48,878 nt of DNA from Acidimicrobiales bacterium (GTDB taxonomy: Bacteria; Actinomycetota; Acidimicrobiia; Acidimicrobiales; Ilumatobacteraceae), in the NCBI GenBank assembly GCA_044871175.1, contig JBIOZN010000056.1, positions 1-48,878 of the forward strand, given 5' to 3'. The position numbers and the translations under genes are program-made. Below are positions 1 to 21,181 of the stretch, piece by piece (position 1 is the first letter of the stretch; each line of letters opens with the position of its first letter). Below the pieces are notes generated by a model that was given only the letters and a program-made list of their open reading frames with translations, searched no databases and had not been told where the DNA came from.

Positions 1-171
1 CCGCCCGCTCCGCCCGAAGGCGGAGGCGGTGGTGGTGGGGGCGGCGGGCGGTGCGGGTGCGGGTGCCGCGGGGTTGGAGCAGGAAGGTGAGGCGGGCGCA
101 GGTGAGGAGCTGGGGGGGCCGGTGGTAGCGGCCGGCCAGACGGACCCGTAGGACAGGTTGGAGCCAGGCAT
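1..171 (-). CDS. hypothetical Pro/Ala-rich protein, partial (3' end lies beyond window start)
   Basis: ATG at 171, 3 nt after the stop of 175..381. The frame stays open to position 1. MPGSNLSYGSVWPAATTGPP..., mostly G/C third positions. Confidence 0.35.
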   Translation of the reverse strand, partial: MPGSNLSYGSVWPAATTGPPSSSPAPASPSCSNPAAPAPAPPAAPTTTASAFGRSGR

Positions 172-174
172 GGT

Positions 175-381
175 TCACCGCTGCAACAGCCGGTCGATGG
201 CGGCCAGCAGGACGAGCGCGGCGTTGGCCATGTCGTAGGCGTCGCACGGATGGCGGGTGTAGTGGCACAGGGCGCACCGCTCGTAGCCGTTGTCGGGCTG
301 TTGGGCGGGGTCGTGGGCGTCCTTGACCGCTTGAGCGTCCCGGCGTAGCTCTTCCCGGTTCACGCCCCCCAACGGTGTCAC
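175..381 (-). CDS. hypothetical protein (Cys/His cluster CALCHYTRHPC)
   Basis: ORF-track ORF with normal amino-acid composition. 4-nt overlap with the upstream gene 378..587. Confidence 0.6.
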   Translation of the reverse strand: MTPLGGVNREELRRDAQAVKDAHDPAQQPDNGYERCALCHYTRHPCDAYDMANAALVLLAAIDRLLQR

Positions 382-587
382 ATGCCGGTTGTAGGTGTCG
401 GGCCGGCAGGAAGGTCGCGGGGACGGGCTGGGCAGACCGACTCGTGGTCGGGGACGCCCATGGCCTGGGCGAACATGTCGGCCAGGACGGCAGGGTCAAG
501 CCGGGGACCCGAGTACACGACCCGGTCAGGCGGTCCGGGTAGCGGGGCGCCACACCAGCGGCACGTCTCAGAGGGTGTCGTCGTCAC
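378..587 (-). CDS. hypothetical protein with CxxC (CRWCG) motif
   Basis: GTG start at 587. Plausible composition. Chained to its neighbours by overlaps. Confidence 0.5.
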   Translation of the reverse strand: MTTTPSETCRWCGAPLPGPPDRVVYSGPRLDPAVLADMFAQAMGVPDHESVCPARPRDLPAGPTPTTGM

Positions 588-858
588 GGGAGGGTCCTAG
601 CCCGAACTGTTCACGCATCGCAGTGATGATGGCCTCGTCGTCATCGTTGGGGCCCAAGGCGACGGCGACCTCAGCCAGGGTCTGCTCCACCCGTTCAATG
701 TGGTCGGCGAGCAGGCCGGCGATGAGCGCCATGTCAGCGGCCAGCCAGCCTGCCTCGGTTGGGTGGGTGCTGGCGATGTCGTGCAGGGCTCGTACCTCCA
801 GGTCAGCGGCCTTGGCGCGTAGCAGGCGCACCACGTGTGCCGGGTCCAGCTCGGTCAT
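568..858 (-). CDS. hypothetical protein
   Basis: ATG at 858 preceded by CCCCTACCC-GAAGGAG-aaccg (strong SD at 7 nt). Helical, non-biased composition. Confidence 0.7.
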   Translation of the reverse strand: MTELDPAHVVRLLRAKAADLEVRALHDIASTHPTEAGWLAADMALIAGLLADHIERVEQTLAEVAVALGPNDDDEAIITAMREQFGLGPSRDDDTL

Positions 859-898
859 CGGTTCTCCTTCGGGTAGGGGGAGGAAGGGGGAGGAAGTG

Positions 899-940
899 GT
901 GGGGGCCCACTCCTGGGAGGCGGGCCCAGGGGGCCCCCAC
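899..940 (-). terminator. GC-rich extended hairpin downstream of rpf (intrinsic-terminator candidate)
   Basis: GTGGGGGCCC (899-908) pairs with GGGCCCCCAC (931-940). An inner CCTGGG/CCCAGG stem has a 7-nt loop. No U tract. Confidence 0.45.
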
Positions 941-992
941 CGGGCAAGAGAACGGCAGCGGGACGTCCCCTTGCGCTAGTCAGCCTAGCTGG

Positions 993-1457
993 TCAGCGGT
1001 AGCCGGCCCGCCGGGAGCAGGTCGGCCACGCCTGCCAGCCCTGATCGGCGAGCACCTTCTCGGCGATGGCGATCTGCTGGGCTGGGGTGGCGTCGTAGGC
1101 GTGGGCGGCGTAAGCGGTGCCGCCGTAGCCCCGCCAGGTGGACGGCTCGAACTGCAGCCCGCCCTCGAAGTGGCCTTCGGTGGCGTGCCAGTTGCCCCCG
1201 CTCTCGCACTGGAGGATGGGGGCCCACTTGCCGATGCCACCGGTGTTGCCGCCGCCGGTGCGCGAGTTGGTGGTGCCGTTCTTCTCCTTGTCGACACGAC
1301 AGCCGTCGGCGCCGGGGCAGCCCTTCCGGGCGTACGCCTCGGCTGCCTTGGGGTCCTTGTCGTGCCACTTGATCCACGCCACCCTCTGGGCGGGTGTGCA
1401 TGCGGTGAGAGCCAGGGCCAGGCCTGCTCCCGCCATCAGTGCTCGTGTTCGTCTCAT
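993..1457 (-). CDS. rpf: Rpf-like (resuscitation-promoting-factor / transglycosylase-like domain) lipoprotein
   Basis: - Trimmed from ORF 993..2159 to ATG 1457 (MRRTRALMAGAGLALALTAC; signal peptide with LTAC lipobox; SD-like GAAAGGGAAA upstream).
- The C-terminal CESGGNW...GGLQF...TW..YGG...QQIAIAEKVLADQGWQAWPTC matches the Rpf domain signature. Confidence 0.85.
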   Translation of the reverse strand: MRRTRALMAGAGLALALTACTPAQRVAWIKWHDKDPKAAEAYARKGCPGADGCRVDKEKNGTTNSRTGGGNTGGIGKWAPILQCESGGNWHATEGHFEGGLQFEPSTWRGYGGTAYAAHAYDATPAQQIAIAEKVLADQGWQAWPTCSRRAGYR

Positions 1458-1498
1458 GGGTTTCCCTTTCTGTGGTTTCCGCCCGCAGATTGGGTTGC

Positions 1499-1528
1499 GC
1501 CCGCCCGAGGCTCGCGCCCCGGGCGGGC
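1499..1528 (-). other. 9-bp GC hairpin between the pentanucleotide array and the rpf RBS
   Basis: GCCCGCCCG (1499-1507) pairs with CGGGCGGGC (1520-1528). The loop is 12 nt. Confidence 0.4.
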
Positions 1529-1530
1529 TT

Positions 1531-2236
1531 CCTTGCCTCGCCACACCTCGCCACGGCTCGCCTTGCCCCGCCCGGCCCAACCATGCCGAGCCACGCCGTG
1601 CCCCGCCTTGCCGTGCCACGCCCTGCCCCGCCAAGCCACGCCCAGCCTTGCCTCGCCCGACCAAGCCCCGCCGCGCCTTGCCTCGCCATGCCCAGCCAGG
1701 CCCGGCCGTGCCCGACCTTGCCGCGCCACGCCACGCCGCGCCGCGCCCCACCCTGCCCTGCCCTGCCTCGCCATGCCGCGCCAGGCCCTGCCGAGCCACG
1801 CCGCGCCCGGCCCTGCCGAGCCGTGCCACGCCACGCCGCGCCCGGCCCTGCCTGGCCTCGCCTTGCCTCGCCGCGCCCTGCCCCGCCCCACCGGACCCCG
1901 CCTCGCCGGGCCACGCCAGTCCCGGCCACGCCGGGCCTCGCCTTGCCCCGCCCCGCCAAACCCTGCCGCGCCGAACCCTGCCCAGCCACGCCCTGCCTCG
2001 CCCTGCCACGCCACGCCTTGCCGTGCCACGCCCCACCGGACCACGCCGTGCCGCGCCCCGCCCCGCCTGGCCATGCCATGCCGCGCCTCGCCTGGCCTCG
2101 CCTGGCCCGGCCAGGCCCAGCCATGCCTTGCCTCGCCGAGCCTTGCCAAGCCCGACCAAACCGCGCCCCGCCCTGCCGTGCCCTGCCAGGCCGGGCCTGG
2201 CCGAGCCGCGCCGCGCCGCGTCCCTGCCCCGCCAAG
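1531..2236. repeat. phase-locked degenerate pentanucleotide array (CCNNG)n, about 141 units; reads (CNNGG)n on the minus strand
   Basis: - Hand-read: 138 consecutive 5-nt units (1531-2220) without a phase break, then one extra T (2221) and 3 more units.
- Positions 1-2 are CC in all but one unit. Position 5 is G in about 124 units (otherwise A, once T). Positions 3-4 are variable.
- The array is open in all six frames, so the six ORF-track ORFs here are artefacts. Confidence 0.95.
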
Positions 2237-2237
2237 A

Positions 2238-2909
2238 TCAGGCTTCCTCGACGGAGAAGCTCTTGACCGCGAACCGTCCGAACGTCGGCCGGAAGTCCGC
2301 TAACCCCACAATGCGGCCCGCCACGGTGATCACGTCCAGCAAGTCAGCCGGCGGGATGTACTCGGGCAGCAGCACCTGCAAAGCGATCTCAGCCGTCCAC
2401 CCCGACAGGATCGCCGGGCGGGCCCTCGTCACCCCGTTGCGTTGCACCTCCACCCGGCGGCGATCCACGTAGTCCCAGTCCCGCACCCCCAGAGTGCCCA
2501 CGTCGGTCAGGCTCACGATGCCCGCCTTGTACAGGTCCAACGCGCTCTTGCGGGGCGAGCGGGGGTCCTGCCGGTACTTGGCGGCGCCCGCCTTGCCTGC
2601 CACCGCCGAACGCAGATACTCGCCGGGCAAACCCAGCGTGCCGTCCTCGCAGCGCCACACGTAGCTCTCCAGGTCGTCCGTCTTCTTCTTCGCCGAGCCT
2701 TTAGGCGCGGCCGCCTTGTCCTGCACGGCGTCGGACTGCCAGCGGTGGAACAGCATGTTGCTCGTGCCGAGCAAGGTGACGTTGGCGACGTAGGGGACGT
2801 GGATCGGGTTCAGGTAGGGCTCGTCGCCGCCCAAAGCGGTCATGCGGGGACCGTTGGGCTGGTCGGGCGGGTTGGGCTGGTCGGCCGATGGGGCCTTACG
2901 GGCAGTCAT
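2238..2909 (-). CDS. hypothetical protein (223 aa), function not recognised
   Basis: ORF-track ORF with ordinary composition (…GLPGEYLRSAV…RPTFGRFAVKSF). ATG 2909 lies 17 nt downstream of a TAGACAGGCTAG -10-like motif. An alternative ATG exists 22 codons in. Confidence 0.7.
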   Translation of the reverse strand: MTARKAPSADQPNPPDQPNGPRMTALGGDEPYLNPIHVPYVANVTLLGTSNMLFHRWQSDAVQDKAAAPKGSAKKKTDDLESYVWRCEDGTLGLPGEYLRSAVAGKAGAAKYRQDPRSPRKSALDLYKAGIVSLTDVGTLGVRDWDYVDRRRVEVQRNGVTRARPAILSGWTAEIALQVLLPEYIPPADLLDVITVAGRIVGLADFRPTFGRFAVKSFSVEEA

Positions 2910-2958
2910 GCCCGGGTAACCTAGCCTGTCTAGTGACTGGCGCTGGACGGCCCCCCGT

Positions 2959-3294
2959 TCACACCAGCGTGCCGACGGGGGTGGTGATGAACCGTGTAGC
3001 CGTCGTTGTGCCCCGATTGCGCCCGTCAGACCCCACCGCCCGGGACCGGCCCGAGTTGACCGGCCACGCGTACCGCAACGGCGTCACGATCACCTCCACC
3101 GCCCCGTCCGCCGACGACTGGGACACGTGCCGCAACGAACGGCGCAACGTCCCGGTGCGGGACGGGGTGCGCGCCGTGATCACCCCCAACGCGTTCTCGC
3201 CGGCCCGGTACAGCACGGGGGCCGCCCCCCGGCGGGCCGCCCGTTCCATGGCCGGCAGGTCCATGGTCAACGTCACCCGGTCCGACAGCCTCAC
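2959..3294 (-). CDS. HK97 gp10-like head-tail/neck protein (candidate)
   Basis: GTG 3294 sits in a GTGA overlap with the tape-measure stop. TGTLRRSLRHV…VEVIVTPLRYAWPVNSG resembles the gp10-family TGxLRxSI…Y motif. Confidence 0.5.
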   Translation of the reverse strand: MRLSDRVTLTMDLPAMERAARRGAAPVLYRAGENALGVITARTPSRTGTLRRSLRHVSQSSADGAVEVIVTPLRYAWPVNSGRSRAVGSDGRNRGTTTATRFITTPVGTLV

Positions 3295-5972
3295 AGTGAC
3301 CGCACCGATCGGGCCACCATTCGGGCCACCAGATCAGGGTTGGTGGCGGCCGTGTTCACGTTCACGGTGGCGTTCACGGTCCTGGTGGTGACGGCACCCG
3401 GGCCGGCCACCGCTGGGGCCGCCAACCCGGCCGCCCCCAGGCCTGCGGTGGCGGGCACGATCACAGGCATGGGCGTGGGCACCGGGCCCAACGTCCCCCC
3501 GCCACCGGCGCTGAACGGGTTCAAGGCCGAACCGATGCTGCTCACCGCGTTCCCCGCCCAGTCCGTCACCTTGTCGAAGGCTGACTTCATGCCGTTCCAC
3601 ATGCCCTCGATCAGCTTCACGCCCAGGTCGTACAGCACCCTGCTCACGTCACCGATGGCCCGCACAATGGCGCCGGGCAGATTCCGGAACCAGTCGACGA
3701 TGCGGCTCCACACCGCGTCGATGCCGTCGGACAGGCCGCCCATCAACTGCCGGCCCAGACCGAGCAGGGTCGACGCCAGGGAACCGATGGCGGCCAGGAT
3801 CTTGTTGGGCAGGTCAGCGAACCAGGACCGCACGCTGTCCCACACCGCCTGGATGCCGTCCCAGAAGCCCTGGATCAGGTCACGGCCCTTCTGCAGCAGC
3901 AAGCCGAGCATGTCGCCCAGCCGGCCTGGCAGCCCGGTGACGAAACCAACGATGGCGTCGATCACGTCGGAGGCGATCTGCTTGATGGCCTCCCACACCT
4001 CACCCCAGTCCACCTTGAAGTCGTTGAGGAAGGTGATCACCGCGGCGATCGCCGTCACCAGTCCCTGCACGGCCGTGATCAGGACCACGTTGATGACCTC
4101 GGCCACCTTGGTGATCACCGGGATCAGCAGGCCCAGCACCTGCAGCAGCGGGGGGAGCAGCAGCTGCACCAACTGCAACAGGGGAGGCAGCAACGGCATC
4201 AGCGCCGCCAGCAGCTCGGCCTGCGACGTCACCCACTGAGCGAAGTACTCGATGAGCATCGGCAGGATCGGGGCCAGCGAATCGGCCAGCACCGACACCG
4301 TTTCGACCAGCACCGGGAAGATCGGTTCCAGGGCCTCCATCACCTTGTCGAAGGCGGCCTGAAGGTCGGGGAGGACGGCCAGCAGGGCGTCACCGACGAC
4401 GCCGGCAAGCCGGGCGAACACGTCGGCGATGTCCATCAGCACCGGGAAGATCGCCTCCAGCCCGGTCTGCAAGAACTGGGCCAGCAAGTCGATCAGCGGG
4501 GCGAAGGCGCGGGCAACTGCGCCCACCACCTTTGCTAAAGGGACCAGGGCGTCCTGCACCAGTTGCGACAAGGGGATCAGCAGCGGCGCGATGGCCATGG
4601 CGACCTGGCCGAGCGCGTCCAGCACCGGGCCCAACGCCGAGCCCAGGTTGTTGAACACGGTGGCGAAGATGGGGGCCAGGTTCTCCAGCAGCGGGCCCAG
4701 CCCGGCGATGGCCGGCGCCAGGTTCTCGGCTAGCACCGTCAACAGGGGGGTGACCGCCGGCAGCACCTCCCGGAACGACGACAGCAGCTGGGTCATGGCC
4801 GGCATCAGCGCCGCGCCGATCGCCGCTTTGCTGTTCTCCAGCTCGGCGGCCAGGATGCGCTGGCTGTTCGCCATGCCCTCGGAGGTGTTCTCGAAGTCGC
4901 CGGCCACCTTGTCGGACTGGGCCATGATCAGCGCGTAGCTGGCCTGCGCCTTCTGGGCGTCGGTGAGCGCGGGGACGGTGCCCTGGGTGGCCTCGGTCAG
5001 CTTGTCCTGAGCGCTCTGGTTGGCGAGCGCGGCCTGTTGCGCCTGCAACGAGTCGGAGCCGTACTTCTTGACGGCGTCGTTGTATTTCTGCTGGGCGATG
5101 TCAGCCTTGGCTTGGGCGGTGGCGATCTTCTCGGTGTCACCGGTGGCCTGGACCAGGCCCATGCTCAACGCCTGCGCCTCGATGGCGCCCTGGTTGAGCA
5201 TGATCCCGAAACGGCGGGCCGGCTCCGACTCGCCCCGCAGGGCCGCCCCCAACGCGCCCACCACCTCGGCCGGTTCGGCGTTGAAGGCCGAACCGAGGTC
5301 GGCGCCGCGCTGCAACAGGTCCTGGGTGGCCTGGGCGGCCTGATCGGCGTTGTAGCCCAGGTTGCCCAGCAGGGCGCCGATGTTGGCGCCGGCCTGGCGG
5401 GCGTCGGACTCGGCCAGGCCGATGCCGGTGGCCGAGGTCTTGAAGAACTGGTCGAGCGCGGACGCTGACTGTTCGCTCATGCCGGCGAACACCAGGCCGG
5501 TCACGTTCACGGCCTCGTTGAGGTCGCCGGCCGCGCCCGTCAGCTCAACGAACTGGTCTTTGATCTGGCCGATGACGGCTGCGCCTCCGGCCGCCGCCAG
5601 ACCCCCGGCCACGATGCCCCCCAGGCCCCCGAAGGTGCGGGAGGCGTTGGTGCTGATGTCAGAGAACTGGCGGTTGGCGCCGTCGGCGTTCTCCTTGGCT
5701 GACCGTTCCACCTTCTCGAACTGCTGGTCGGCCTCCCGGGCGATGGCAGCGAAGTCGTCAGCGGTTTCCTCGTCCAGCTTGGCGAAGGCCCGCTCCACGC
5801 CGGACGCTGACTCCTTGGCCGCCGCCTCCACCTCACCGAACTCGTCGCGGGCGTCCGCCGAGATCTGGCCCAACACCCGGGACACCTCGCCCTGAGTGGA
5901 GCCCATGTTGGCGGACAACGACGACGTGTCGGCGGTGATGCGGAGCACCGCGTCGCCAATGGTCTCCGGCAC
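3291..5972 (-). CDS. tail tape measure protein
   Basis: 893 aa. Typical TMP N-terminus (IGDAVLRITADTSSL…), long Ala/Leu/Gly-rich helical repeats and a TP901-like core (…GESEPARRFGIMLNQGAIEAQALSMGL…). Confidence 0.85.
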   Translation of the reverse strand: MPETIGDAVLRITADTSSLSANMGSTQGEVSRVLGQISADARDEFGEVEAAAKESASGVERAFAKLDEETADDFAAIAREADQQFEKVERSAKENADGANRQFSDISTNASRTFGGLGGIVAGGLAAAGGAAVIGQIKDQFVELTGAAGDLNEAVNVTGLVFAGMSEQSASALDQFFKTSATGIGLAESDARQAGANIGALLGNLGYNADQAAQATQDLLQRGADLGSAFNAEPAEVVGALGAALRGESEPARRFGIMLNQGAIEAQALSMGLVQATGDTEKIATAQAKADIAQQKYNDAVKKYGSDSLQAQQAALANQSAQDKLTEATQGTVPALTDAQKAQASYALIMAQSDKVAGDFENTSEGMANSQRILAAELENSKAAIGAALMPAMTQLLSSFREVLPAVTPLLTVLAENLAPAIAGLGPLLENLAPIFATVFNNLGSALGPVLDALGQVAMAIAPLLIPLSQLVQDALVPLAKVVGAVARAFAPLIDLLAQFLQTGLEAIFPVLMDIADVFARLAGVVGDALLAVLPDLQAAFDKVMEALEPIFPVLVETVSVLADSLAPILPMLIEYFAQWVTSQAELLAALMPLLPPLLQLVQLLLPPLLQVLGLLIPVITKVAEVINVVLITAVQGLVTAIAAVITFLNDFKVDWGEVWEAIKQIASDVIDAIVGFVTGLPGRLGDMLGLLLQKGRDLIQGFWDGIQAVWDSVRSWFADLPNKILAAIGSLASTLLGLGRQLMGGLSDGIDAVWSRIVDWFRNLPGAIVRAIGDVSRVLYDLGVKLIEGMWNGMKSAFDKVTDWAGNAVSSIGSALNPFSAGGGGTLGPVPTPMPVIVPATAGLGAAGLAAPAVAGPGAVTTRTVNATVNVNTAATNPDLVARMVARSVRSL

Positions 5973-5981
5973 CGCTCCAGC

Positions 5982-6494
5982 GTGGCGCGCGCCGGCCCCG
6001 CCGCCTGGGACTGCGTGGCAAGCTCACCCATCCGCTACGGGTTCGACGTCTACACCCACACCGAGGTTGTGCCCCGGCCGCCGCCGGTCACCACCCGCTG
6101 GCGGGTGGGCCCGGTGCGGGCCAAGACGATCGTTCCCGCTCCCCAGGGTTTCACCCTCACCGCCGACCGCCAGGAGATCACCGTGCAACTCACCGCCGAC
6201 CAGCAGGTCGCCCTGTCCATCACCGGCCAAGACGACTACGGCAACCCCGTCGACATCACCGGTGACGTCGTCTGGTTGTCGTCCGACGAGACCATCGTCC
6301 GGGTTGACCAGGAGGACGCCCAGCACGCCACCGCCGTCGCCGTCGGCCCGGTGGGCACGGCCGCCGTCACCGTCACCAACGACGTCAACCAGGACGGGAC
6401 CGGCGACTTCCAGGGCTCCCTCGCCATTGACGTGGTGGCCGGCGACATCACCGAGATCGCCATCATTCCGGGTGACCCCACCGACAAGCCGTAG
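5982..6494 (+). CDS. bacterial Ig-like (Big_2-type) domain protein
   Basis: Plus strand. ITVQLTADQQVALSITGQDDYGNPVDITGDVVWLSSDETIVRVD…AVGPVGTAAVTVT is a typical Big_2 pattern. High GC3 from the first codons. Start uncertain (GTG 5982 or GTG 6015). Confidence 0.7.
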   Translation: MARAGPAAWDCVASSPIRYGFDVYTHTEVVPRPPPVTTRWRVGPVRAKTIVPAPQGFTLTADRQEITVQLTADQQVALSITGQDDYGNPVDITGDVVWLSSDETIVRVDQEDAQHATAVAVGPVGTAAVTVTNDVNQDGTGDFQGSLAIDVVAGDITEIAIIPGDPTDKP

Positions 6495-6504
6495 CGTTGC
6501 CGCC

Positions 6505-6780
6505 ATGAGGAAGACCCTGGCTGGCATTGGGCTCGGTGCTGCGCTGGTGTTCGGGCCCGTCGCCCACGCCGCCGCTCAGACCGTGCCCACCATCGACCGC
6601 GACATCGACGTGGACGACGACGATGACGGTGACGCCGGCTTGTGGGGATTGGCCGGGCTGGCCGGGCTGCTGGGTCTGGCGGGTCTGGCGGGGCGCAAGC
6701 GGCGTGAGGTCGTGGAGCGCCCCGGCACCACCTACCGGTCACCCCCGACCACGGGTGGGGCGTCCAGCACCAACCCGTAG
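6505..6780 (+). CDS. small secreted/anchored protein with Asp-rich segment and WGxxGxxG-type C-terminal Gly/Leu anchor
   Basis: Trimmed from ORF 5896..6780 to ATG 6505. Signal peptide MRKTLAGIGLGAALVFGPVAHAAAQ, then DRDIDVDDDDDGD, then WGLAGLAGLLGLAGLAGRKRRE. Confidence 0.65.
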   Translation: MRKTLAGIGLGAALVFGPVAHAAAQTVPTIDRDIDVDDDDDGDAGLWGLAGLAGLLGLAGLAGRKRREVVERPGTTYRSPPTTGGASSTNP

Positions 6781-6781
6781 C

Positions 6782-7096
6782 TCACTCGGAGAGGCGCACG
6801 TCGGCGGCGACCAGGATGGACGCCAGGCCGGCGGCCGCCCACGCCGTCACCAGCACCTCCCAGATGCCTGCCTGCCACAGGCCGGTGGCGAACGCCCACA
6901 CGGCGACGGCCGCCACGGCCGCCCACCACGACACGCAGAACGGGCACACGACCAGCTTCCCGAAGAAGCCCGGGTCCTCGCGGCCCACCGGGTTGAGCCG
7001 GTCACGTAACGGTTCGGTGATGCCGTCCAAGGCGAGCAGCCGGCCCACCCGGTAGGCGGCGAAGCCGGCCAGCAGCGCCGCCACCACGTAGCTCAA
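6782..7096 (-). CDS. DUF1360-like integral membrane protein
   Basis: Trimmed from ORF 6782..7387 to TTG 7096 (TTGA overlap with the protease stop). GITEPLRDRL…GKLVVCPFCVSWWAA plus hydrophobic segments. Confidence 0.55.
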   Translation of the reverse strand: MSYVVAALLAGFAAYRVGRLLALDGITEPLRDRLNPVGREDPGFFGKLVVCPFCVSWWAAVAAVAVWAFATGLWQAGIWEVLVTAWAAAGLASILVAADVRLSE

Positions 7097-8250
7097 GCCG
7101 GTTGGCCCTGCCGGTGTCCCCAGGCCCTGCGGCCCTCCTCGGGCCGGTTGCGGGGCCGGCCCCCCGGGGCCGCCGTGCGTGCCACCTCGTCGGACAGGCG
7201 CCGCTTGCGTTCGTCGCGCAGCACCGCCTTCAACCGGACTGCGCGAATCCGGTGACGGGCCGATGGTGAGATAGCGGCGATCACCGTCTTGGGGGTGCCG
7301 TCGGCCGCCGAGGCGACAATGGGGAAGCCGGGCGTGTTCACGCTCAGCAGAGCGATCAGCTTCAGGCCACCGTCGATGCGCCGCCAATCCCCCGACAGGG
7401 GGGCGCCAGCGGTGCGGGCCAGCAGGCCCGGGTCCACATCATCGAACGTCTCCCCTGACACCCAGCCGCCGTGGTCGTCGTCACCGATCGCCACTCGGGC
7501 CCAGGCGGTGGTCACGTCGCCGTACCAGCCGGCCGCCGCTTTGGCCCCCAGGTCCTCGGGGGCGTGGTCGGCGCCCCCCACCAGCACACCGGTGCGGACC
7601 GTGCCCCCGTCGGCCAGCAGGGTCGCCCCCGTGGCGAAGTACGGGTAGACGCCCTGGTCGCGGGGTGGGGTGACGCACTGGTCGCCGTACCCGGTGTGGC
7701 ACTGGTCCCAGGTCCAGGCGTGCCCGCGGACCACGCCGTTGCTGTCAACGGTAAGGGGGACGGGGCCGGCGAAACCGGGGTTGGTGTAGGCGGTGACCGG
7801 CCGGCCCTCGACTGGGGTGGCGGCGGTCAACCAGTACGAGGCGGTCTCAGCGTTCATCTCGAACGGCGGGGGTTCCCGGTTGTCGTCCCGGTAGTGGACG
7901 GACAGGTGCGTGTAGGCGCCCCGCCGGCCCTCCGGGGGGATCTGCACGTCCATGCCGGGCCCCTTGCCTCGGCCGCCGTGCAGCGCGGCGATCGCCGCGG
8001 CCATGCCCCGCAGGTTGGCCGGGCCGGGGATTCCGTCGGCGCTGACCATGTGGTGGATGAGCCGGCCGGCGTCCTTGGGCACGTTGCCGTCGGCGTCCAC
8101 CCGGTCCGGGTCCACCCAGGCGAACACCCGCCGGGCGACGCTCACCGGCAGCGGGCTCGGCAACCGCCGCTCGTTGCCCGGACCGTCCCAGGTGGCGTCC
8201 ACCACGGGCGTGTGGTGGGTGGCGGCGGTCAGGGTGTCGCACTCACACAT
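7093..8250 (-). CDS. capsid maturation protease (candidate)
   Basis: Lies immediately downstream of portal. GHAWTWDQCHTGYGDQCVTPPRD…YPYFATG matches the GHxAxWxxCHxG…CVxPP…Y motif I associate with actinophage capsid maturation proteases. Confidence 0.6.
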   Translation of the reverse strand: MCECDTLTAATHHTPVVDATWDGPGNERRLPSPLPVSVARRVFAWVDPDRVDADGNVPKDAGRLIHHMVSADGIPGPANLRGMAAAIAALHGGRGKGPGMDVQIPPEGRRGAYTHLSVHYRDDNREPPPFEMNAETASYWLTAATPVEGRPVTAYTNPGFAGPVPLTVDSNGVVRGHAWTWDQCHTGYGDQCVTPPRDQGVYPYFATGATLLADGGTVRTGVLVGGADHAPEDLGAKAAAGWYGDVTTAWARVAIGDDDHGGWVSGETFDDVDPGLLARTAGAPLSGDWRRIDGGLKLIALLSVNTPGFPIVASAADGTPKTVIAAISPSARHRIRAVRLKAVLRDERKRRLSDEVARTAAPGGRPRNRPEEGRRAWGHRQGQPA

Positions 8251-10105
8251 CGGCGGGCTCCTTGGTCACGGCGGCGCACAGGGCCTCAACGCAGATCGGC
8301 GCCGAAGGCGGGTCAGGGTCGTGGAGGTGGCGGAGGGCGGCCTCCCGGCAGGCGTCGTTCGCCACCGTCCACATCTCGTGCGGATCGGCGCCCAACGGTT
8401 CCGCCCAGGCGCGGGCCTGGTCCATGCGGATCACCGGGTCACCCTTCAACAGCTCCTCGGCGGAGATGCCGCACGCCGTCAGCACCTCCCGGCCCTGGGC
8501 CAGCCGGGTCTCGGTGGCGTTCAGCTTGCGGGCCCGGGCCCGGTTCTTGAGGCGGGCCTCGGCCCGGTCAATGAACCGGCGCACCCCCATCTCGGTGGCG
8601 CCGCCGATGGCGGCCATCAACTCGCGGCGGCTGTACTCCTGCAAGCCCCGGGCGTCGTGACGGTCGGTGTCGCCGGGGGCCGGCGGAGACGTGCGAGGTT
8701 GCGGCAGGAACCGTGTTTCCCGGTTCGGGGCCCCCAACGGTTGGGGAACGGGGCTTCCACCGCCTCCCGGGGCTTCGGCGGGCAAATCCAGGGCCGGATC
8801 GAAGTAGGTGTCGATGCCCTTGGCCGTCTGGTCGGTGGACAGGGGACCCTTGGAGCGGATCATCCGCTCGGCGATCTCCTTGTCGGTGGGGGCGTCGGTG
8901 TCGGTGAACCCGATGCGGAGCCGCAGCGCGGCGTCGGAGATGACCCCGGCGGCGTGGGCCTGGAACACGTCGGCCACCTTGGCCGTGTTGAGCGCCGCCA
9001 GCGAGAAACCGACCCGCCAGTAGGCGGGGTCGTCGCCGGCCAGCAGCACCGCCGGTCCCACCACCTCCCGGTTGATGGTGTCAGCGATCAGCCGCACCAG
9101 CGGATCGACATGCGCGCCCTGCATTGACTCTTCGACCGCGGCGCTCGCCCACTGCGTGGTTGACCCCAGACCGGTCACAATCTCCGGGGGGGCGTCCAAG
9201 CCCCGCACGATGCGGGCCAGCACCTCGTTGCGCAGCTGCGCCGACCGTTCATCGAACGGCCGCTCCCACGGGATGTACCGGACGCCCTTCTCGATCAGGT
9301 CGAGCGCCATCCGCATGATGAGCGGCGCCACCGCGCTCGCCTCACCCGGGGCCCGCAGGTTCGCCGAGAACGCCTCCGACAACGTGAGGGTCAGTTCGTC
9401 GCCCACCGGGGCGTCAGCGGCAGGGGCGTCACCGTCAGGCGTGGCCGCGTCGAAGCTGGCCTCGTCGGCGATGATGAGAATGCCCGACGTCTGGAGTCGT
9501 GACCGGATGGTGGCCCGGATGTCGGCGTCGAGCAGCATGAGCATGTCGATCAGGTCGAGCAGGCTCATCAGCTCAGAGAACGGGCGTGACCGAGACTGCG
9601 GGTCGGGCCGCCACACCCGCACCATGTTCGCCAACGGCCACGGGTCGCGCCGGTCCACACCCGTCGGGTCCCGGTACGTGTAGGACTCGGTGGCGTCCCA
9701 GCGGATCTCCTGGTCGGAGAACACCTCGACGGTGCCCGGCGACGTCTGAATCAGGTAGGCCTCGCCGCTCACCTTCAGCGGGATCGCCAGCGCCGCCAGC
9801 AACACGTCCGAGCCGCCAGCCGAGTCCAAGAAGGAGCCCAGCAGGTCTTGGGCGGGGCCCGGCTGGGGCGCCCACCGGTTGGTGGGCGGGTCACGCTGTT
9901 CCACCCGCAGCGCCGCCTTCGACGCCAACGACGCCACGTAGTCGATGACGTACCGCACCTCGGGCACGCAGCGGTAGGCAGCCCAGCAGCGGGCCTGCAA
10001 GTCGCGCAGCGGCCCCCGGTTGCGGGTCAGTTCCAGGGTGGGGGACAGGCCCCGGGCGCGCCGGTTGAGACGCTGGGAAGCGGCAGTGACAGTGGCGCGC
10101 GCCAT
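8243..10105 (-). CDS. portal protein
   Basis: 620 aa. …MVRVWRPDPQSRSRPFSELMSLLDLIDMLMLLDADIRATIRSRLQTSGILII… is typical of siphovirus portals. Confidence 0.8.
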   Translation of the reverse strand: MARATVTAASQRLNRRARGLSPTLELTRNRGPLRDLQARCWAAYRCVPEVRYVIDYVASLASKAALRVEQRDPPTNRWAPQPGPAQDLLGSFLDSAGGSDVLLAALAIPLKVSGEAYLIQTSPGTVEVFSDQEIRWDATESYTYRDPTGVDRRDPWPLANMVRVWRPDPQSRSRPFSELMSLLDLIDMLMLLDADIRATIRSRLQTSGILIIADEASFDAATPDGDAPAADAPVGDELTLTLSEAFSANLRAPGEASAVAPLIMRMALDLIEKGVRYIPWERPFDERSAQLRNEVLARIVRGLDAPPEIVTGLGSTTQWASAAVEESMQGAHVDPLVRLIADTINREVVGPAVLLAGDDPAYWRVGFSLAALNTAKVADVFQAHAAGVISDAALRLRIGFTDTDAPTDKEIAERMIRSKGPLSTDQTAKGIDTYFDPALDLPAEAPGGGGSPVPQPLGAPNRETRFLPQPRTSPPAPGDTDRHDARGLQEYSRRELMAAIGGATEMGVRRFIDRAEARLKNRARARKLNATETRLAQGREVLTACGISAEELLKGDPVIRMDQARAWAEPLGADPHEMWTVANDACREAALRHLHDPDPPSAPICVEALCAAVTKEPADV

Positions 10106-18728: not shown

Positions 18729-21181
18729 CCGAGGCACCACCAGTTGGCCCGATAGGCGCCGTTGTGGTTGGCGGCCAGATACACCCGAAAGCCGGTGCCC
18801 GAGTAGTTGGCGGTGCAGTAGACGGCCGGCCCGACGGCATCACCGCAGATGCACGAGGCGATTACCAACCCCGACAGCACCGTCCCCCATGACAGGTCGA
18901 ACCAGTTGCGGTCAGGGACGGTCAGCACGGTCGACGCCATGAGCCAGAACAGCCGGGCGCCGTTGGGCACGAGCCCGTGGATGCCGCTGCCAATCTGGGT
19001 GAGTCCCGGCACCTGATGGTTGTAGGTGTCGGCCTGGTTCCCGAACGGGAACGAGAGACGGAACGACAGCGGCGCAATGGCGAGCACCCCGTCGGCGCCG
19101 CCGAAGCGGGCCAAGTCAGCGTTGCCCTCCCGAATCGCCACCTGCTGGCCGGACTTGGCGTTGACCATGGTGAACCCAGCGGCCTCGGCCAGGAAGGCGT
19201 AGTTGTTGCCGCCCTTGCGGCTGGTGTGGCCGAACTCGGCGTAGTTGGTGTCGGTGCCGTTGTAGGGCTCGCCGTAGGCGGGAGCGACCAGCCCGGCCCC
19301 GGCGGCGCCCGCCGGTCCCTGCGCGCCGGTGTCACCCTTGGGTCCGCTCGCCAGCTTGGTGATCGTCATCGACGGGGCCGGCGGGTCGGTGGCGCCCGAG
19401 TCGGTGATGAGGGCCCAGGTGTAGGCGGCGCCGCCGTAGCAGTAGAGGTTCACCACGTCGTTGGCGGCGAGGTAGCCCTGCCAGGTCACCACCGCGGTGG
19501 CGAAGGCGGCCAGGTGCACGTACTGGCGGGCGAGGATGACCCCCGCCTTGCCGACCGCGACGAAGCTGCTGGCCGGCGGCGCGGCGCCCGTCGCGGTGAG
19601 GATGCCGGTGATGACGTAGATGCCGGCGCTGTTCACCCGGATGCCGTTGCCCGACTGGGTGAAGGCCCCGGCGACGTTCTGCTGTTCGTGGAGGAAGGTG
19701 CAGGCGATCGCGGTGACGGTGCCCGCCGCCATGGCTGGCCCGGCGGTGGCCCGCACCCGCATCATGGGAGCGTCGGCACCGCCGGGCAGCCCCTGGGGCC
19801 CTTGTGTCCCGCCCATCGAGGTGACGGTGAGGGCCGAGCGGTTGTCGACCGCAGGGGGGCCGCCAGCATCGGTATCGAGGGTGACCGAGAGGGTGTCGTT
19901 GACGAGCAGGTCGTACACGGCGGTGACGAAGCCCTCCCGCCAGCCGCCGCTGTTGAACACCGACGCCTGAGCCTGGATGGTCGTGGCGCCCCGCTTCTGA
20001 TACACGGTGGGCACGATGTAGGCGCCACCCGTGCTCATGGTGGTGATGTGGAGGTTGACCTCGTAGCGGCCGGGCTGGTCGCAGCGCAAGTCGGTGCCGC
20101 CGACCAGGGTGAAGCCGCTGGCCGACGAGACGCTCATCGGAATCTTGGTGGCGTTGACGAAGGCGCCGCCGGGGAAGCCGACGTAGGCGTAGTACTGGGT
20201 GGTCGTCGTGGGTGCGTTGACCCACTTCGTGTCGTAGTTCGTGCCGCTGGCCTTGGCGAGAATCTGGTCGAGCGTGCCGCCGGGTGCGACGCCCGGGCCC
20301 GTTGCGCCGGTCGCGCCGGCCGGCCCTTGCACGCCGGCCGGCCCCTGCACGCCCTGCGTGCCCTGGAGGCCCTGCGGCCCCTGCGCGCCGGTATCGCCCT
20401 TCGGCCCCTGGCTGCCGGTGGCGCCCGCTGGACCTTGGCTGCCGGTGGCACCGGTCGGCCCCTGCGTGCCCTGGATGCCTTGGGCGCCGGTGTCACCCTT
20501 GGCGCCCTGCGGCCCCTGCGCGCCGGTCGCACCAGCAGGGCCAGTGGGGCCGGGCGGGCCGACGATCTGACCGACGTCGACCCACTGCGTGCCATCCCAG
20601 AAGTACAGGTCGCCGTCGGACTCCACGATGTAGGCGTCACCCGGCTGGGCGCCCGGCGGCAGGTCACCCGGTGTCGGCACGCTGCCGATCAAGTCGACGC
20701 TGGTGCCCTGCTCGCCCTGTTCGCCCTGCGGACCGGTCGGACCTGTAGGACCTGCCGGGCCGATGGGCCCCTGCGTGCCGGTGTCACCCTTGACGCCTTG
20801 CGGGCCAGCCGGTCCGGTGGGGCCGGTGGGGCCGGCCGGCCCCTGGCTGCCGGTGGCGCCCGTGGCTCCGGTCGGGCCGCCTGGACCCTGCGGGCCGGGC
20901 ACGCCCTGCGTCCCCGGAGGGCCGGCCGGGCCAGTGGGACCGGGGGGGCCGGGAGGCCCCTGCTCGCCGGTGCCGGGCGTGGACGGCGCGATGACGTACG
21001 TGCTGCCGTCGCCCGTCCAGCGCACCACCAGCTGGCCGCCCGCGTCCTCCTCGATGATCCATTCCTGGGTCTTGGGGAACGGCCGCAACTCCAGTTCGTG
21101 GAGCCGGTCGTTGTGGTCCTTGAACAGCGCCAGGTTGTCCGGGTAGTGGCGGGGGTGGGCGCCGTTGTGCAGGTCAGACAT
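18722..21181 (-). CDS. collagen-like (Gly-X-Y) tail fibre protein
   Basis: 819 aa. Two long G-X-Y blocks ([19 protein letters not shown]…) separated by a [19 protein letters not shown] knob, then a C-terminal globular domain. Confidence 0.85.

What the first reader, a model, noticed from the sequence alone, without database searches (positions are those of the whole stretch)
1531..2236. ~700-bp phase-locked degenerate pentanucleotide array (CCNNG)x~141 filling the whole gap upstream of the phage rpf gene
**Seen in the sequence**
- From 1531 to 2220 I read 138 consecutive 5-nt units with no phase slip.
- Positions 1-2 are CC in all but one unit (GCTCG at 1556).
- Position 5 is G in about 124 units; the rest are A, with one T.
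- Positions 3-4 look free. 15 of 16 dinucleotides occur and only TA is missing, so CTAG never occurs.
- A single extra T (2221) is followed by 3 more units.
- Within perfect units, the only way to make a stop is CTAG. The segment is therefore open in all six frames, which explains the six nested 230-514 aa ORFs in the track.
- Period 5 is not a multiple of 3. Every frame cycles through all repeat positions and no frame shows the GC3 bias of real genes here. I read it as non-coding.
- It starts 1 nt after the stop of 2238..2909. It ends at a hairpin (1499-1528) and the rpf RBS, so it would form a ~700-nt leader or spacer on the minus-strand transcript.
- It is strongly strand-asymmetric. The sense (minus) strand carries GG every 5 nt (CNNGG) and the plus strand carries CC runs.

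**Inference**
- Fixed GCC with free NN is not what decay of a simple microsatellite gives. It suggests selection on the GCC triplet at half-helical-turn spacing, for example a protein or RNA-binding lattice, or targeted diversification of NN.
- The G-rich non-template strand could support two-tetrad G-quadruplexes or R-loops. It is formally reminiscent of pentameric immunoglobulin switch repeats.
- I know of no described phage element like this.
Basis: partly seen in the sequence, partly recalled or inferred. Interest (0 to 1): 0.92.

Follow-up and report, generated by a model that had tools for sequence, protein, structure and literature searches.

The report
Giant VIPR guide-RNA array in phage
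The 700-base CCNNG repeat is the DNA template of a very long guide-RNA array of a VIPR system, a recently described CRISPR-like weapon that phages use against other phages, and the gene just upstream of it encodes the protein that reads the array.

Summary
Window 1531-2220 holds 138 phase-locked CCNNG units, and three more follow one extra base.

Read on the minus strand, the units are YNNGG. This is the signature of the vrRNAs of VIPR systems, described in two 2026 bioRxiv preprints.

The gene that ends 1 nt before the array (2238-2909, minus strand) is a Vipr homologue:
- Its only PDB sequence match is "SUSP1 Vipr protein" (profile E = 4.6e-12).
- The residues that hold the GGY motif in SUSP1 Vipr are conserved.
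- Its AlphaFold model matches Cas7-type RAMPs.

Array and gene go together elsewhere:
- 81 of 120 viral contigs found by the DNA pattern alone encode a Vipr-family ORF.
- 77 of 80 contigs found by the protein alone carry YNNGG arrays, almost all on the vipr strand.

Within this Vipr clade I found natural guide-target pairs that obey the published 1-nt-skip (wobble-skipping) rule. They hit nuclease and helicase genes of other VIPR-bearing prophages.

So the array is non-coding and is not an rpf leader, a G-quadruplex element or an artefact. It is a new member of a known kind.

What remains unusual is its size and lack of punctuation: 138 in-phase units, against 9-16 in the published vrRNAs and a maximum of 116 in my unbiased sample. 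I found no target for it, and how it is processed is unknown.

The parts
2238..2909 (-). vipr gene: 223-aa minimal RAMP (Cas7-like) protein. It is predicted to polymerise along the array RNA, one protomer per YNNGG unit.
   Evidence: - phmmer against PDB hits only 36pp_D "SUSP1 Vipr protein" (E = 1.4e-5). A profile of 34 homologues gives E = 4.6e-12.
- SUSP1 residues H17, R138, D177, W178 and R179, which contact GGY, align with H55, R164, D205, F206 and R207. All five are invariant in the family alignment.
- The AF2 model has pLDDT 84. Top Foldseek PDB hits are Csm3, type VII Cas7 and Cas7-11 (E from 5e-6).
- No Pfam or PADLOC hit; phrog_4652, unknown function.
2222..2236 (-). First three YNNGG units (CTTGG CGGGG CAGGG on the RNA strand). 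They start 1 nt after the vipr stop codon and are separated from the main run by one extra base (2221).
1531..2220 (-). Main vrRNA array: 138 phase-locked YNNGG units. GGY is conserved in 136 of them; the exceptions are ACTGG at 1916-1920 and CGAGC at 1556-1560. Y is C in 124 units and T in 13. The NN string is non-redundant.
   Evidence: - Count matrix and autocorrelation and pattern statistics.
- The NN string has no internal duplication beyond shuffles.
- NN composition excludes wobble-containing dinucleotides by about 60-120 bits.
- No Rfam family and no tRNA.
1499..1528 (-). 3' stem-loop (13-bp G+C stem, GCGA loop) 2 nt after the last unit. It is a candidate terminator, 3' stabiliser or cap of the array transcript.
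   Evidence: - Fold of 1455-1545 on the minus strand: -46.9 kcal/mol, z = -3.4, 0/200 shuffles as stable.
- Relatives L014, L113, L119, L065 and L185 also have a hairpin right after the array.
- There is no U-tract, so the role is inferred.
2918..2923 (-). Possible -10-like hexamer TAGGTT (TANNNT type) 8 nt upstream of the vipr ATG, in the 49-nt gap after the tail-completion gene. Weak; from direct reading only.
   Evidence: Direct reading. The sigma-70 consensus scan found no promoter in 900-3400, so this is an inference only.

Best explanation
**What it is**
Window 1499-2909 (minus strand) is a VIPR (Viral Interference Programmable Repeat) cassette carried by an actinophage-like genome. The cassette consists of vipr (2238-2909) followed at once by an array of 141 YNNGG units.

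**How it most likely works**
1. vipr and the array are most likely transcribed as one RNA. That RNA ends at, or is stabilised by, the 3' hairpin at 1499-1528.
2. Vipr protomers bind the RNA one per 5-nt unit. Each GGY is flipped out and held by the RRM sheet, thumb and G-loop. The two variable bases of every unit are left exposed.
3. The resulting helical ribonucleoprotein filament reads double-stranded DNA by the 1-nt-skip rule. Each NN pairs with two target bases and every third target base is skipped. In coding targets the skipped base is the codon wobble position.
4. Binding silences the bound gene of a competing phage or other mobile element.

The 282 variable bases here show no internal redundancy. 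The array probably stores on the order of ten specificities as in-phase concatenated guides.

**Shown here**
- The repeat and its statistics.
- Homology of the neighbouring protein to Vipr, with conserved GGY-contact residues and a RAMP fold.
- The genome-wide, strand-locked linkage of such arrays to vipr.
- The 1-nt-skip rule operating in natural guide-target pairs of this same Vipr clade.

**Taken from the two preprints**
- Filament structure.
- dsDNA binding, R-loop triplex formation and transcriptional repression.

**Inferred**
- Co-transcription.
- The role of the hairpin.
- The mosaic (multi-guide) nature of the array.
- That the targets are competing phages.
For: **Literature**
- vrRNAs are YNNGG repeats with conserved GGY and hypervariable NN next to vipr. 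The 1-nt-skip rule and wobble skipping are described there, and architectures vary.
- One protomer binds per repeat, and the GGY-contact residues are named.

**Protein**
- PDB sequence hit to SUSP1 Vipr.
- Invariant H55, R164, D205, F206 and R207.
- Cas7-like fold.
- 4694 homologues, none with a Pfam domain.

**Linkage of array and gene**
- (CCNNG)x15 alone retrieved at least 120 IMG/VR contigs. Of these, 81 encode a Vipr-family ORF. They carry 4960 units on the vipr strand and 208 on the opposite strand.
- In the reverse direction, 77 of the 80 best Vipr loci in IMG/VR carry arrays: 4749 units on the vipr strand and 8 opposite.
- Genome-borne relatives across many phyla also have flanking arrays.

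**Targeting rule in this clade**
- L161 guide units 0-16 match 32/34 bases, in frame and skipping wobble, of a DUF3799/PDDEXK nuclease gene in four other VIPR loci.
- The L144/L145 guide matches 23/24 bases of the Walker-A region of an SF2 helicase in L014 and L156.

**Non-coding**
- The spanning ORFs have no Pfam or PHROG hits.
- Long arrays in relatives are closed in all six frames.

**Other**
- No self-target beyond shuffles, as reported for VIPR.
- The sequence is reproduced in independent assemblies.
Against: - No natural target was found for any part of this array. Searched: the window itself, about 280 loaded loci, six exact 9-10-unit scans of IMG/VR, one scan of JGI metagenomes (chance hits only), tblastn of the NN-derived pseudo-peptide against phages, and a pseudo-peptide profile against 5.8 billion proteins.
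- The array differs from the characterised vrRNAs, which have 9-16 repeats plus a structured tail and are under 100 nt. Here 138 units run in phase without tails, ribozymes or phase shifts, so processing is unexplained.
- No vap-like accessory gene is recognisable.
- Identity to SUSP1 Vipr is confined to the C-terminal about 75 residues at the sequence level.
- There are no expression data.
- The VIPR literature itself consists of two preprints.
Confidence: 0.92

Rival explanations
1. The cassette is VIPR-derived, but the array is an over-expanded or decaying relic. The 5-nt repeat would have grown by slippage or unequal crossing-over and no longer guides anything.
For: - No target was found for any segment.
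- The length exceeds every array in the unbiased sample.
- NN = AG (CAGGG units) is over-represented: 15 observed against 2.9-9.6 expected.
Against: - GGY is intact in 139 of 141 units and the phase is kept over 690 nt. Neutral decay would erode both.
- The NN string shows no block duplication beyond shuffles, which argues against recent slippage expansion.
- vipr is intact, with all contact residues.
- Other long arrays (143, 116, 100, 99 and 96 units) recur in the same clade.
- The target searches were shallow: exact matches only, few windows, and the host's phages are probably unsampled.
Confidence: 0.05
2. The repeat is translated as a frame-insensitive repeat protein. Any frame of (CNNGG)n gives X-G-X-A-X pentapeptides. 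It could, for example, be an N-terminal extension of Rpf or a separate basic protein.
For: - All six frames are open, and the rpf frame runs through the array as the 388-aa ORF 993-2159.
Against: - Constraint falls on fixed nucleotides of every 5-nt unit, including would-be wobble positions, and not on a codon frame.
- No Pfam or PHROG hit for any spanning ORF, including the pentapeptide-repeat family.
- Rpf has its own RBS, ATG and lipoprotein signal peptide at 1458.
- Homologous long arrays have stops in all three sense frames and often in all six.
- Openness here follows from the chance absence of TA, for which about 3 units are expected.
Confidence: 0.01
3. The array is a cis-acting nucleic-acid structure: a two-tetrad G-quadruplex or R-loop-forming G-rich leader, or a DNA-level protein-binding lattice, that regulates rpf or recombination.
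For: - GG every 5 nt on the sense strand and strong GC skew.
- The RNA folds better than shuffles in silico (z about -4.7).
Against: - It does not explain the conserved pyrimidine after GG, the free NN, or the strand-locked linkage to vipr in 77/80 and 81/120 loci.
- rpf is not a conserved neighbour.
- The in-silico fold is a by-product of the 5-nt periodicity, being full of 1-nt bulges.
- NN strings of relatives match foreign genes by the skip rule, which is a guide function and not a structural one.
Confidence: 0.01
4. The array is an assembly or sequencing artefact (chimeric or collapsed repeat).
For: Two short-read assemblies end inside the array. Only the window contig spans all 706 nt.
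Against: - The first 449-493 nt are identical in three assemblies from different runs.
- All 25-mers are unique.
- Hundreds of independent contigs carry the same kind of array next to the same gene.
Confidence: 0.01

Closest known systems
VIPR systems (Vipr + vrRNA), bioRxiv 10.64898/2026.04.26.720920 and 10.64898/2026.04.26.720927; characterised examples are Escherichia phage SUSP1 and a Pseudomonas fulva prophage (type II)
   Same: - A small stand-alone RAMP protein of about 20 kDa with conserved GGY-binding residues.
- YNNGG tandem repeats with conserved GGY and hypervariable NN, directly flanking vipr on the same strand.
- Phage-borne.
- No self-targeting.
- In this clade the 1-nt-skip, wobble-skipping rule holds for natural targets in other mobile elements.
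   Different: - 138 units in one phase (141 in all), against 9-16 per vrRNA.
- No per-guide 3' tail or pseudoknot, only one terminal hairpin.
- No recognisable vap gene.
- The cassette sits after tail genes, not in a two-gene operon or a replication module.
- The protein is only distantly related to SUSP1 Vipr: the sequence match is limited to the C-terminal third.
- The VIPR type (I-VII) could not be assigned, because the classification figures and tables are not available in text.
Class 1 CRISPR-Cas backbone (Cas7/Csm3/Cmr4 filament on crRNA)
   Same: - RAMP fold; the top structural matches are Csm3, type VII Cas7 and Cas7-11.
- Protomers polymerise on a guide RNA at a fixed nucleotide period, and a thumb interrupts the pairing.
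   Different: - A 5-nt period with three of five guide bases sequestered, against a 6-nt period with one flipped base.
- The guide information is interleaved with the "repeat" rather than held in separate spacers.
- No Cas6-type repeat hairpins, and no cas genes nearby among the ORFs I examined.
- dsDNA binding without a PAM, according to the preprint.
TRAP (trp RNA-binding attenuation protein) and its (G/U)AG-NN(N) repeat RNA (from my own knowledge)
   Same: A protein oligomer reads a conserved triplet that recurs about every 5 nt in single-stranded RNA, with unconstrained spacer bases between triplets.
   Different: - TRAP binds 11 triplets on a closed ring and acts in attenuation.
- Its spacers carry no information.
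- There is no homology to Vipr.
- This is an analogy of geometry only.
Immunoglobulin class-switch pentamer repeats and G-quadruplex-forming microsatellites
   Same: G-rich pentameric periodicity with strand asymmetry.
   Different: Those are degenerate copies of fixed pentamers that act in cis as DNA or R-loop structures. Here two of the five positions are information-bearing, and the element is tied to a dedicated RNA-binding protein.

Membership tests
VIPR system (general definition) | Encodes a Vipr protein: a minimal RAMP with an RRM core, a glycine-rich loop and a thumb | tested here: met
   - AF2 model with pLDDT 84.
- All top Foldseek PDB hits are Cas7-type RAMPs, E 5e-6 to 2e-4.
- C-terminal G-loop motif G-x-x-D-F-R-P-x-F-G-R-F.
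- Arg-rich, low-confidence hairpin at residues 150-164, which corresponds to the thumb.
VIPR system (general definition) | Sequence homology to an experimentally characterised Vipr | tested here: met
   - The only PDB hit is 36pp "SUSP1 Vipr protein": E = 1.4e-5 with the single sequence and 4.6e-12 with the family profile.
- The alignment covers only residues 143-219.
VIPR system (general definition) | Residues that recognise G1, G2 and Y3 of the GGY motif are conserved | tested here: met
   - SUSP1 H17, R138, D177, W178 and R179 align with H55, R164, D205, F206 and R207. The N-terminal stretch of that alignment is weak.
- All five are invariant in 34 homologues.
- W to F is a conservative change for stacking.
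VIPR system (general definition) | Tandem YNNGG repeats (conserved GGY, hypervariable NN) flanking vipr on the same strand | tested here: met
   - 141 units start 1 nt after the vipr stop codon, and 139 fit YNNGG.
- Across the clade the strand lock is 4749 to 8 units.
VIPR system (general definition) | NN dinucleotides match foreign DNA by the 1-nt-skip rule, and there is no self-targeting | tested here: inconclusive
   - No self-target beyond shuffles.
- No foreign target found for this array.
- The rule does hold for other arrays of the same Vipr clade.
- NN composition excludes wobble-containing dinucleotides.
VIPR system (general definition) | The array is transcribed, and the RNA co-purifies with Vipr as a ribonucleoprotein | not testable with these tools
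   This needs RNA-seq and a pull-down.
VIPR system (general definition) | An accessory vap gene lies next to vipr (typical, not universal) | tested here: inconclusive
   - The neighbours are a tail-completion protein, the tape measure protein and an Rpf-like transglycosylase, plus small ORFs with no hits.
- No neighbour family is shared with more than 32 of 158 relatives, and none of these families is in the window.
VIPR type II architecture (SUSP1 / P. fulva-like) | Discrete vrRNAs of 9-16 repeats, each followed by a conserved structured 3' tail, about 100 nt in total | tested here: not met
   - 138 units run in one phase with no internal tails, ribozymes or tRNA-like elements, and there is a single terminal hairpin.
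- I therefore do not file it under type II.
- The preprint mentions other architectures (staggered, ribozyme-interspersed, single), but their details are in figures that are not available.
Pentapeptide-repeat or other repeat protein | A translated repeat with a family match and frame-specific constraint | tested here: not met
   - No Pfam or PHROG hit for the six spanning ORFs.
- The constraint has a 5-nt period.
- Relatives are closed in all frames.
CRISPR array | Direct repeats of about 24-40 nt separated by unique spacers, with cas genes nearby | tested here: not met
   - The array has a 5-nt unit with interleaved variable bases.
- The only RAMP-like gene is vipr.
- No PADLOC hit for the ORFs from 175 to 3294 that I tested.

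The most novel reading that the evidence does not exclude
The 138-unit in-phase run may not be diced into discrete vrRNAs of 16 units or fewer. Instead it may be used as an unpunctuated "guide tape". Vipr would coat the whole RNA of about 700 nt as one long filament, roughly 140 protomers, or the RNA would be cut at arbitrary places. Any run of about 10-17 consecutive units could then act as a guide. That would be a new array logic, with many specificities concatenated in one register and no repeat, tail or processing signals. It could allow one particle to engage several loci of a rival genome at once.
Probability: 0.2. Interest if true: 0.7.

Novelty: new member of a known kind. Interest (0 to 1): 0.5.

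Why it matters
- The element that looked unprecedented from raw sequence belongs to VIPR, an RNA-guided DNA-recognition system described in 2026 and proposed to predate CRISPR.
- This locus extends VIPR to an actinophage-like genome. Its portal protein's relatives are almost all actinophages.
- It is the longest uninterrupted array among the roughly 280 loci I examined.
- It poses a concrete open question for the field: how is a tail-less, unpunctuated array of about 140 units processed or used?
- The side results give independent computational support for the 1-nt-skip code in a Vipr clade that has not been studied experimentally. That clade has 4694 homologues (E <= 0.001), and the genomic relatives retrieved span many bacterial phyla. 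The natural targets found are conserved nuclease and helicase motifs of rival VIPR-bearing prophages.
- A practical point: gene callers routinely emit spurious ORFs over these arrays, and the one Vipr homologue found in GenBank phage records is annotated as an HTH regulator.

Tried and rejected
**Similarity searches**
- Megablast of window 1-6000 against GenBank phages gave no match.

**Target searches for this array (all negative or at chance level)**
- Ungapped NNx scan of the window: best score 16, shuffles 12-16.
- The same scan over 120 viral loci and 78 genomic loci.
- Six exact IMG/VR scans with 9-10-unit windows (units 29-38, 57-66, 105-114, 117-125, 86-94, 72-80). Five gave 0 hits. 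One gave a single hit with no extension, in a 46% GC contig.
- One JGI metagenome scan (units 19-27) gave 12 hits. None extends beyond 10 units. Of the eight whose frame I translated, five lie in long ORFs (149-747 aa) that look like cellular genes and three in short ORFs of about 42 aa; contig GC is 33-61%. This is about the chance expectation.
- I translated NN as codon positions 1-2 into a pseudo-peptide. tblastn of the forward version against phages gave nothing.
- A 12-variant profile of the forward and reverse versions against 5.8 billion proteins gave nothing at E <= 10. This argues against one long contiguous coding target.

**Search for internal punctuation**
- No block duplication in the NN string.
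- No Rfam family, no tRNA, no sigma-70 promoter and no minus-strand terminator by consensus scan.
- Sense/antisense codon-composition segmentation gave blocks of 10-44 units. This is only marginally better than shuffles (15-33 of 300 shuffles reach it). It is not associated with the 13 T-type units (P about 0.3).

**Other**
- RNA folding of the array gives z about -4.7. I judged this a by-product of the periodicity.
- NN composition against codon models shows that wobble-containing dinucleotides are excluded, but positions 1-2 fit no better than a uniform model.
- VIPR type assignment was not possible: the supplementary tables are not held.
- A T-arm-like hairpin in relative L213 is not a tRNA by ARAGORN.
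Full report
**1.

Window 1531-2220 is 138 consecutive 5-nt units with no phase slip.
- Position 1 is C in 137/138 units and position 2 is C in 138/138.
- Position 5 is G in 124, A in 13 and T in 1.
- Positions 3-4 use 15 of 16 dinucleotides.
- Autocorrelation is 0.62-0.68 at multiples of 5 and 0.27-0.37 at other lags.
- (CCNNG)x5 occurs 78 times, all within the array. Shuffles give 0.04.
- One extra T (2221) separates the run from three more units at 2222-2236.
- The array begins 1 nt after the stop codon of the minus-strand ORF 2238-2909. It ends 2 nt before a 13-bp GNRA hairpin at 1499-1528.

The sequence is not an artefact.
- Two independent Logan assemblies are identical to the window over 7.1 and 6.2 kb. 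That includes the first 449 and 493 nt of the array, although both contigs stop inside it.
- All 25-mers of the array are unique.

The missing TA dinucleotide is not significant. About 3.2 units are expected, and homologous arrays contain CTAG units.

**2. It is a widespread class**

- Their arrays have the same matrix, with CC and G fixed and NN free. They come from contigs of 59-69% GC.
- In-phase runs reach 143, 100 and 99 units.

**3. What the class is**

A full-text search found two 2026 bioRxiv preprints that describe VIPR systems.
- A small RAMP protein, Vipr, works with vrRNAs made of YNNGG repeats. GGY is conserved and NN is hypervariable.
- The systems are mostly phage-borne and repress competing mobile elements.
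- The structural paper shows one Vipr protomer per repeat in a right-handed filament. G1 is read by H17 and D177, G2 by R138 and W178, and Y3 sits in a pocket that includes R179.

On the minus strand the window array reads YNNGG. The + strand position 5 (G or A) becomes C or T, which is the pyrimidine Y.

**4. The neighbouring gene is vipr**

- The 223-aa product of 2238-2909 has no Pfam or PADLOC hit. Its only PHROG hit is a family of unknown function.
- Its only sequence match in the PDB is "SUSP1 Vipr protein" (36pp): E = 1.4e-5 alone and 4.6e-12 with a profile of 34 homologues.
- The alignment places SUSP1 H17, R138, D177, W178 and R179 on H55, R164, D205, F206 and R207. All five are invariant in the family.
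- An AlphaFold model (pLDDT 84) matches Cas7-type RAMPs best: Csm3, type VII Cas7 and Cas7-11.
- The family is large, with 4694 hits at E <= 0.001.
- Relatives at 45-63% identity occur in prophage-like regions of Planctomycetota, Actinomycetota, Proteobacteria, Bacillota, Acidobacteriota, Cyanobacteria and others.

**5. Array and gene are linked**

- Of the 120 contigs found by DNA pattern alone, 81 encode a Vipr-family ORF by an iterated profile. They carry 4960 repeat units on the vipr strand and 208 on the other strand.
- In the reverse direction, 77 of the 80 best Vipr loci in IMG/VR carry YNNGG arrays. There are 4749 units on the vipr strand and 8 opposite.
- In that unbiased sample the longest in-phase run per locus has a median of 19 units, a 95th percentile of 52 and a maximum of 116.
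- Genome-borne relatives have runs of 8-43 units on either side of vipr.
- The window's 138-unit run is therefore the extreme of a continuum, not a separate category.
- The nearest relative (79% identity, L217) has about 122 units upstream of vipr in seven segments.

**6. The code operates in this clade**

I ran an all-against-all spaced-seed search of every array against every loaded locus. It found non-trivial guide-target pairs.
- The 19-unit array upstream of vipr in L161 matches 32 of 34 bases over units 0-16. The match lies in frame, with NN as codon positions 1-2 and the skipped base at wobble. It covers the motif IAVEK[KR]EPFRCGVWR of a DUF3799/PDDEXK-like nuclease gene in four other VIPR-bearing loci of different phyla.
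- Units 10-21 of the L144/L145 array match 23 of 24 bases of the Walker-A segment VIPTGGGKTPVI of an SF2 helicase in L014 and L156.
- A 13-unit array in L180 matches 20 of 20 bases in the helicase gene of L002.

These pairs support the published rule and the picture of conflict between phages, independently of the preprints and for the clade that contains the window's Vipr.

**7. What could not be shown for this array**

- No target was found in the window itself, where the score equals that of shuffles. This is also the expected absence of self-targeting.
- None was found in about 280 loaded loci.
- Six exact IMG/VR scans gave 0 hits or one chance hit.
- One metagenome scan gave 12 hits at the chance level.
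- Reading NN as codon positions 1-2 gives a pseudo-peptide. It finds nothing in phage genomes.
- As a profile in both orientations, it finds nothing among 5.8 billion proteins at E <= 10.
- A single long contiguous coding target is therefore unlikely. A mosaic of short guides against unsampled phages is the simplest reading.
- The 141 NN dinucleotides show no block duplication.
- Their composition excludes dinucleotides that contain a wobble base by about 60-120 bits, but fits positions 1-2 no better than a uniform model.
- I found no punctuation: no Rfam family, tRNA, ribozyme or phase shift.
- A composition-based strand segmentation was only marginal.

**8. Context**

- The cassette lies after the tape measure gene (3291-5972) and a tail-completion gene (2959-3294). 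It lies before an Rpf-like transglycosylase lipoprotein (993-1458).
- The portal protein's relatives are almost all actinophages.
- Relatives of the cassette usually sit in replication or recombination modules next to RusA-like and helicase genes.
- No accessory gene is shared by more than 32 of 158 loci, and none of these is present in the window.
- The cassette therefore looks like a mobile two-part unit: vipr plus array.

**9. Rivals**

- A translated repeat is contradicted by the 5-nt constraint, by the lack of family hits, and by stops in all frames of homologous long arrays.
- A G-quadruplex or R-loop leader of rpf explains neither the conserved pyrimidine nor the linkage to vipr.
- Artefact is excluded by independent assemblies.
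- A decayed, functionless array remains possible at low probability, because no target was found. However, 139 of 141 units keep the YNNGG form and the phase is intact.

**10. Verdict**

- The finding is real and biologically important, but it is an instance of a kind already described in preprints.
- Its remaining interest lies in the extreme, unpunctuated array, which the published 9-16-repeat, tail-capped model does not explain.
- Further interest lies in the actinophage-like host range and in the clade-level targets found here.

Noticed in passing
L161:3815-3909 (guide); targets L137:1000-1050, L199:2098-2148, L163:2114-2164, L170:1987-2037: A natural vrRNA-target pair in this Vipr clade. 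It matches 32/34 NN bases, in frame and skipping wobble, in the IAVEK[KR]EPFRCGVWR motif of a DUF3799/PDDEXK-like nuclease gene. That gene lies 2-3 kb upstream of vipr in four other prophages from different phyla.
   Followed up: yes
L144:4960-5074 and L145:1349- (guides); targets L014 (minus strand, around + coordinate 3872) and L156:5269-5304; also L180:7004-7068 -> L002:9191-9220: Array units match the Walker-A segment VIPTGGGKTPVI (23/24 bases) of a ResIII/DEAD SF2 helicase that lies just downstream of other VIPR cassettes. A third guide matches the C-terminal part of the L002 helicase gene (20/20 bases). Only part of a 23-unit in-phase array matches, so one in-phase run can hold more than one specificity.
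   Followed up: partly
window:18725-21181 (minus strand): An 819-aa ORF with two blocks of 30 collagen-like G-X-Y triplets (residues 72-161 and 208-297). It is probably a tail fibre. It accounts for the period-9/18/27 tandem repeats that TRF reports at 20278-20879.
   Followed up: partly
window:993-1458 (minus strand): An Rpf-like transglycosylase (PF06737, E = 4e-24) with a lipoprotein-type signal peptide lies directly downstream of the array. It is not a conserved neighbour of VIPR cassettes elsewhere.
   Followed up: partly
L121 and L122 (Logan SRR30692725 and SRR30692728; window 1789-8909 and 1745-7915): Two independent short-read assemblies of the same phage are 100% identical to the window, but both end inside the array. 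This happens even though all 25-mers are unique. The cause may be a coverage drop in the 83% GC stretch.
   Followed up: partly
L217:1-699; also array-derived ORF clusters in 129 of 158 loci: Gene callers, and simple ORF extraction, produce spurious ORFs across YNNGG arrays. An example is a 232-aa "gene" in L217. Array-derived ORFs form one of the largest "protein" clusters around vipr.
   Followed up: no
GenBank OR003939.1 (Phage DSL-LC04) 22438-22974: This is the only record among 50,697 GenBank phage records with a homologue of this Vipr clade (55% identity). The feature there is annotated "helix-turn-helix transcriptional regulator".
   Followed up: no
L213:5660-6100 (also L214, L215): In a relative with 66% identity the array segments are interrupted by a hairpin that carries a tRNA T-arm-like sequence (GGTTCGAGCCCC). 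ARAGORN finds no tRNA. It could be a processing signal.
   Followed up: partly
window:1531-2236, minus-strand units: NN = AG (CAGGG units) occurs 15 times, against 2.9 (sense) or 9.6 (antisense) expected from codon positions 1-2. The 13 units with T as the pyrimidine include three adjacent pairs: units 15/16, 39/40 and 68/69. Two of the pairs are the same TCCGG TGGGG. No explanation was found.
   Followed up: partly
L074:1859-2013 and L099 (array around 2524-2643); L035:9447-9540: A few pattern-found "arrays" are true low-complexity pentanucleotide microsatellites, with the same NN repeated. They give meaningless skip-rule matches to a triplet repeat in L035. Not every (CCNNG)n hit is a VIPR array.
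   Followed up: no
arrays in L140, L141, L163, L174, L161, L014, L119 and window 1531-1540: Many arrays of this clade end with CATGG or CAAGG units; in the one validated guide whose ends I checked (L161) the last two CATGG units lie outside the matched part. After them comes a hairpin, and often a RusA-like gene (LPYPPSxN motif).
   Followed up: partly
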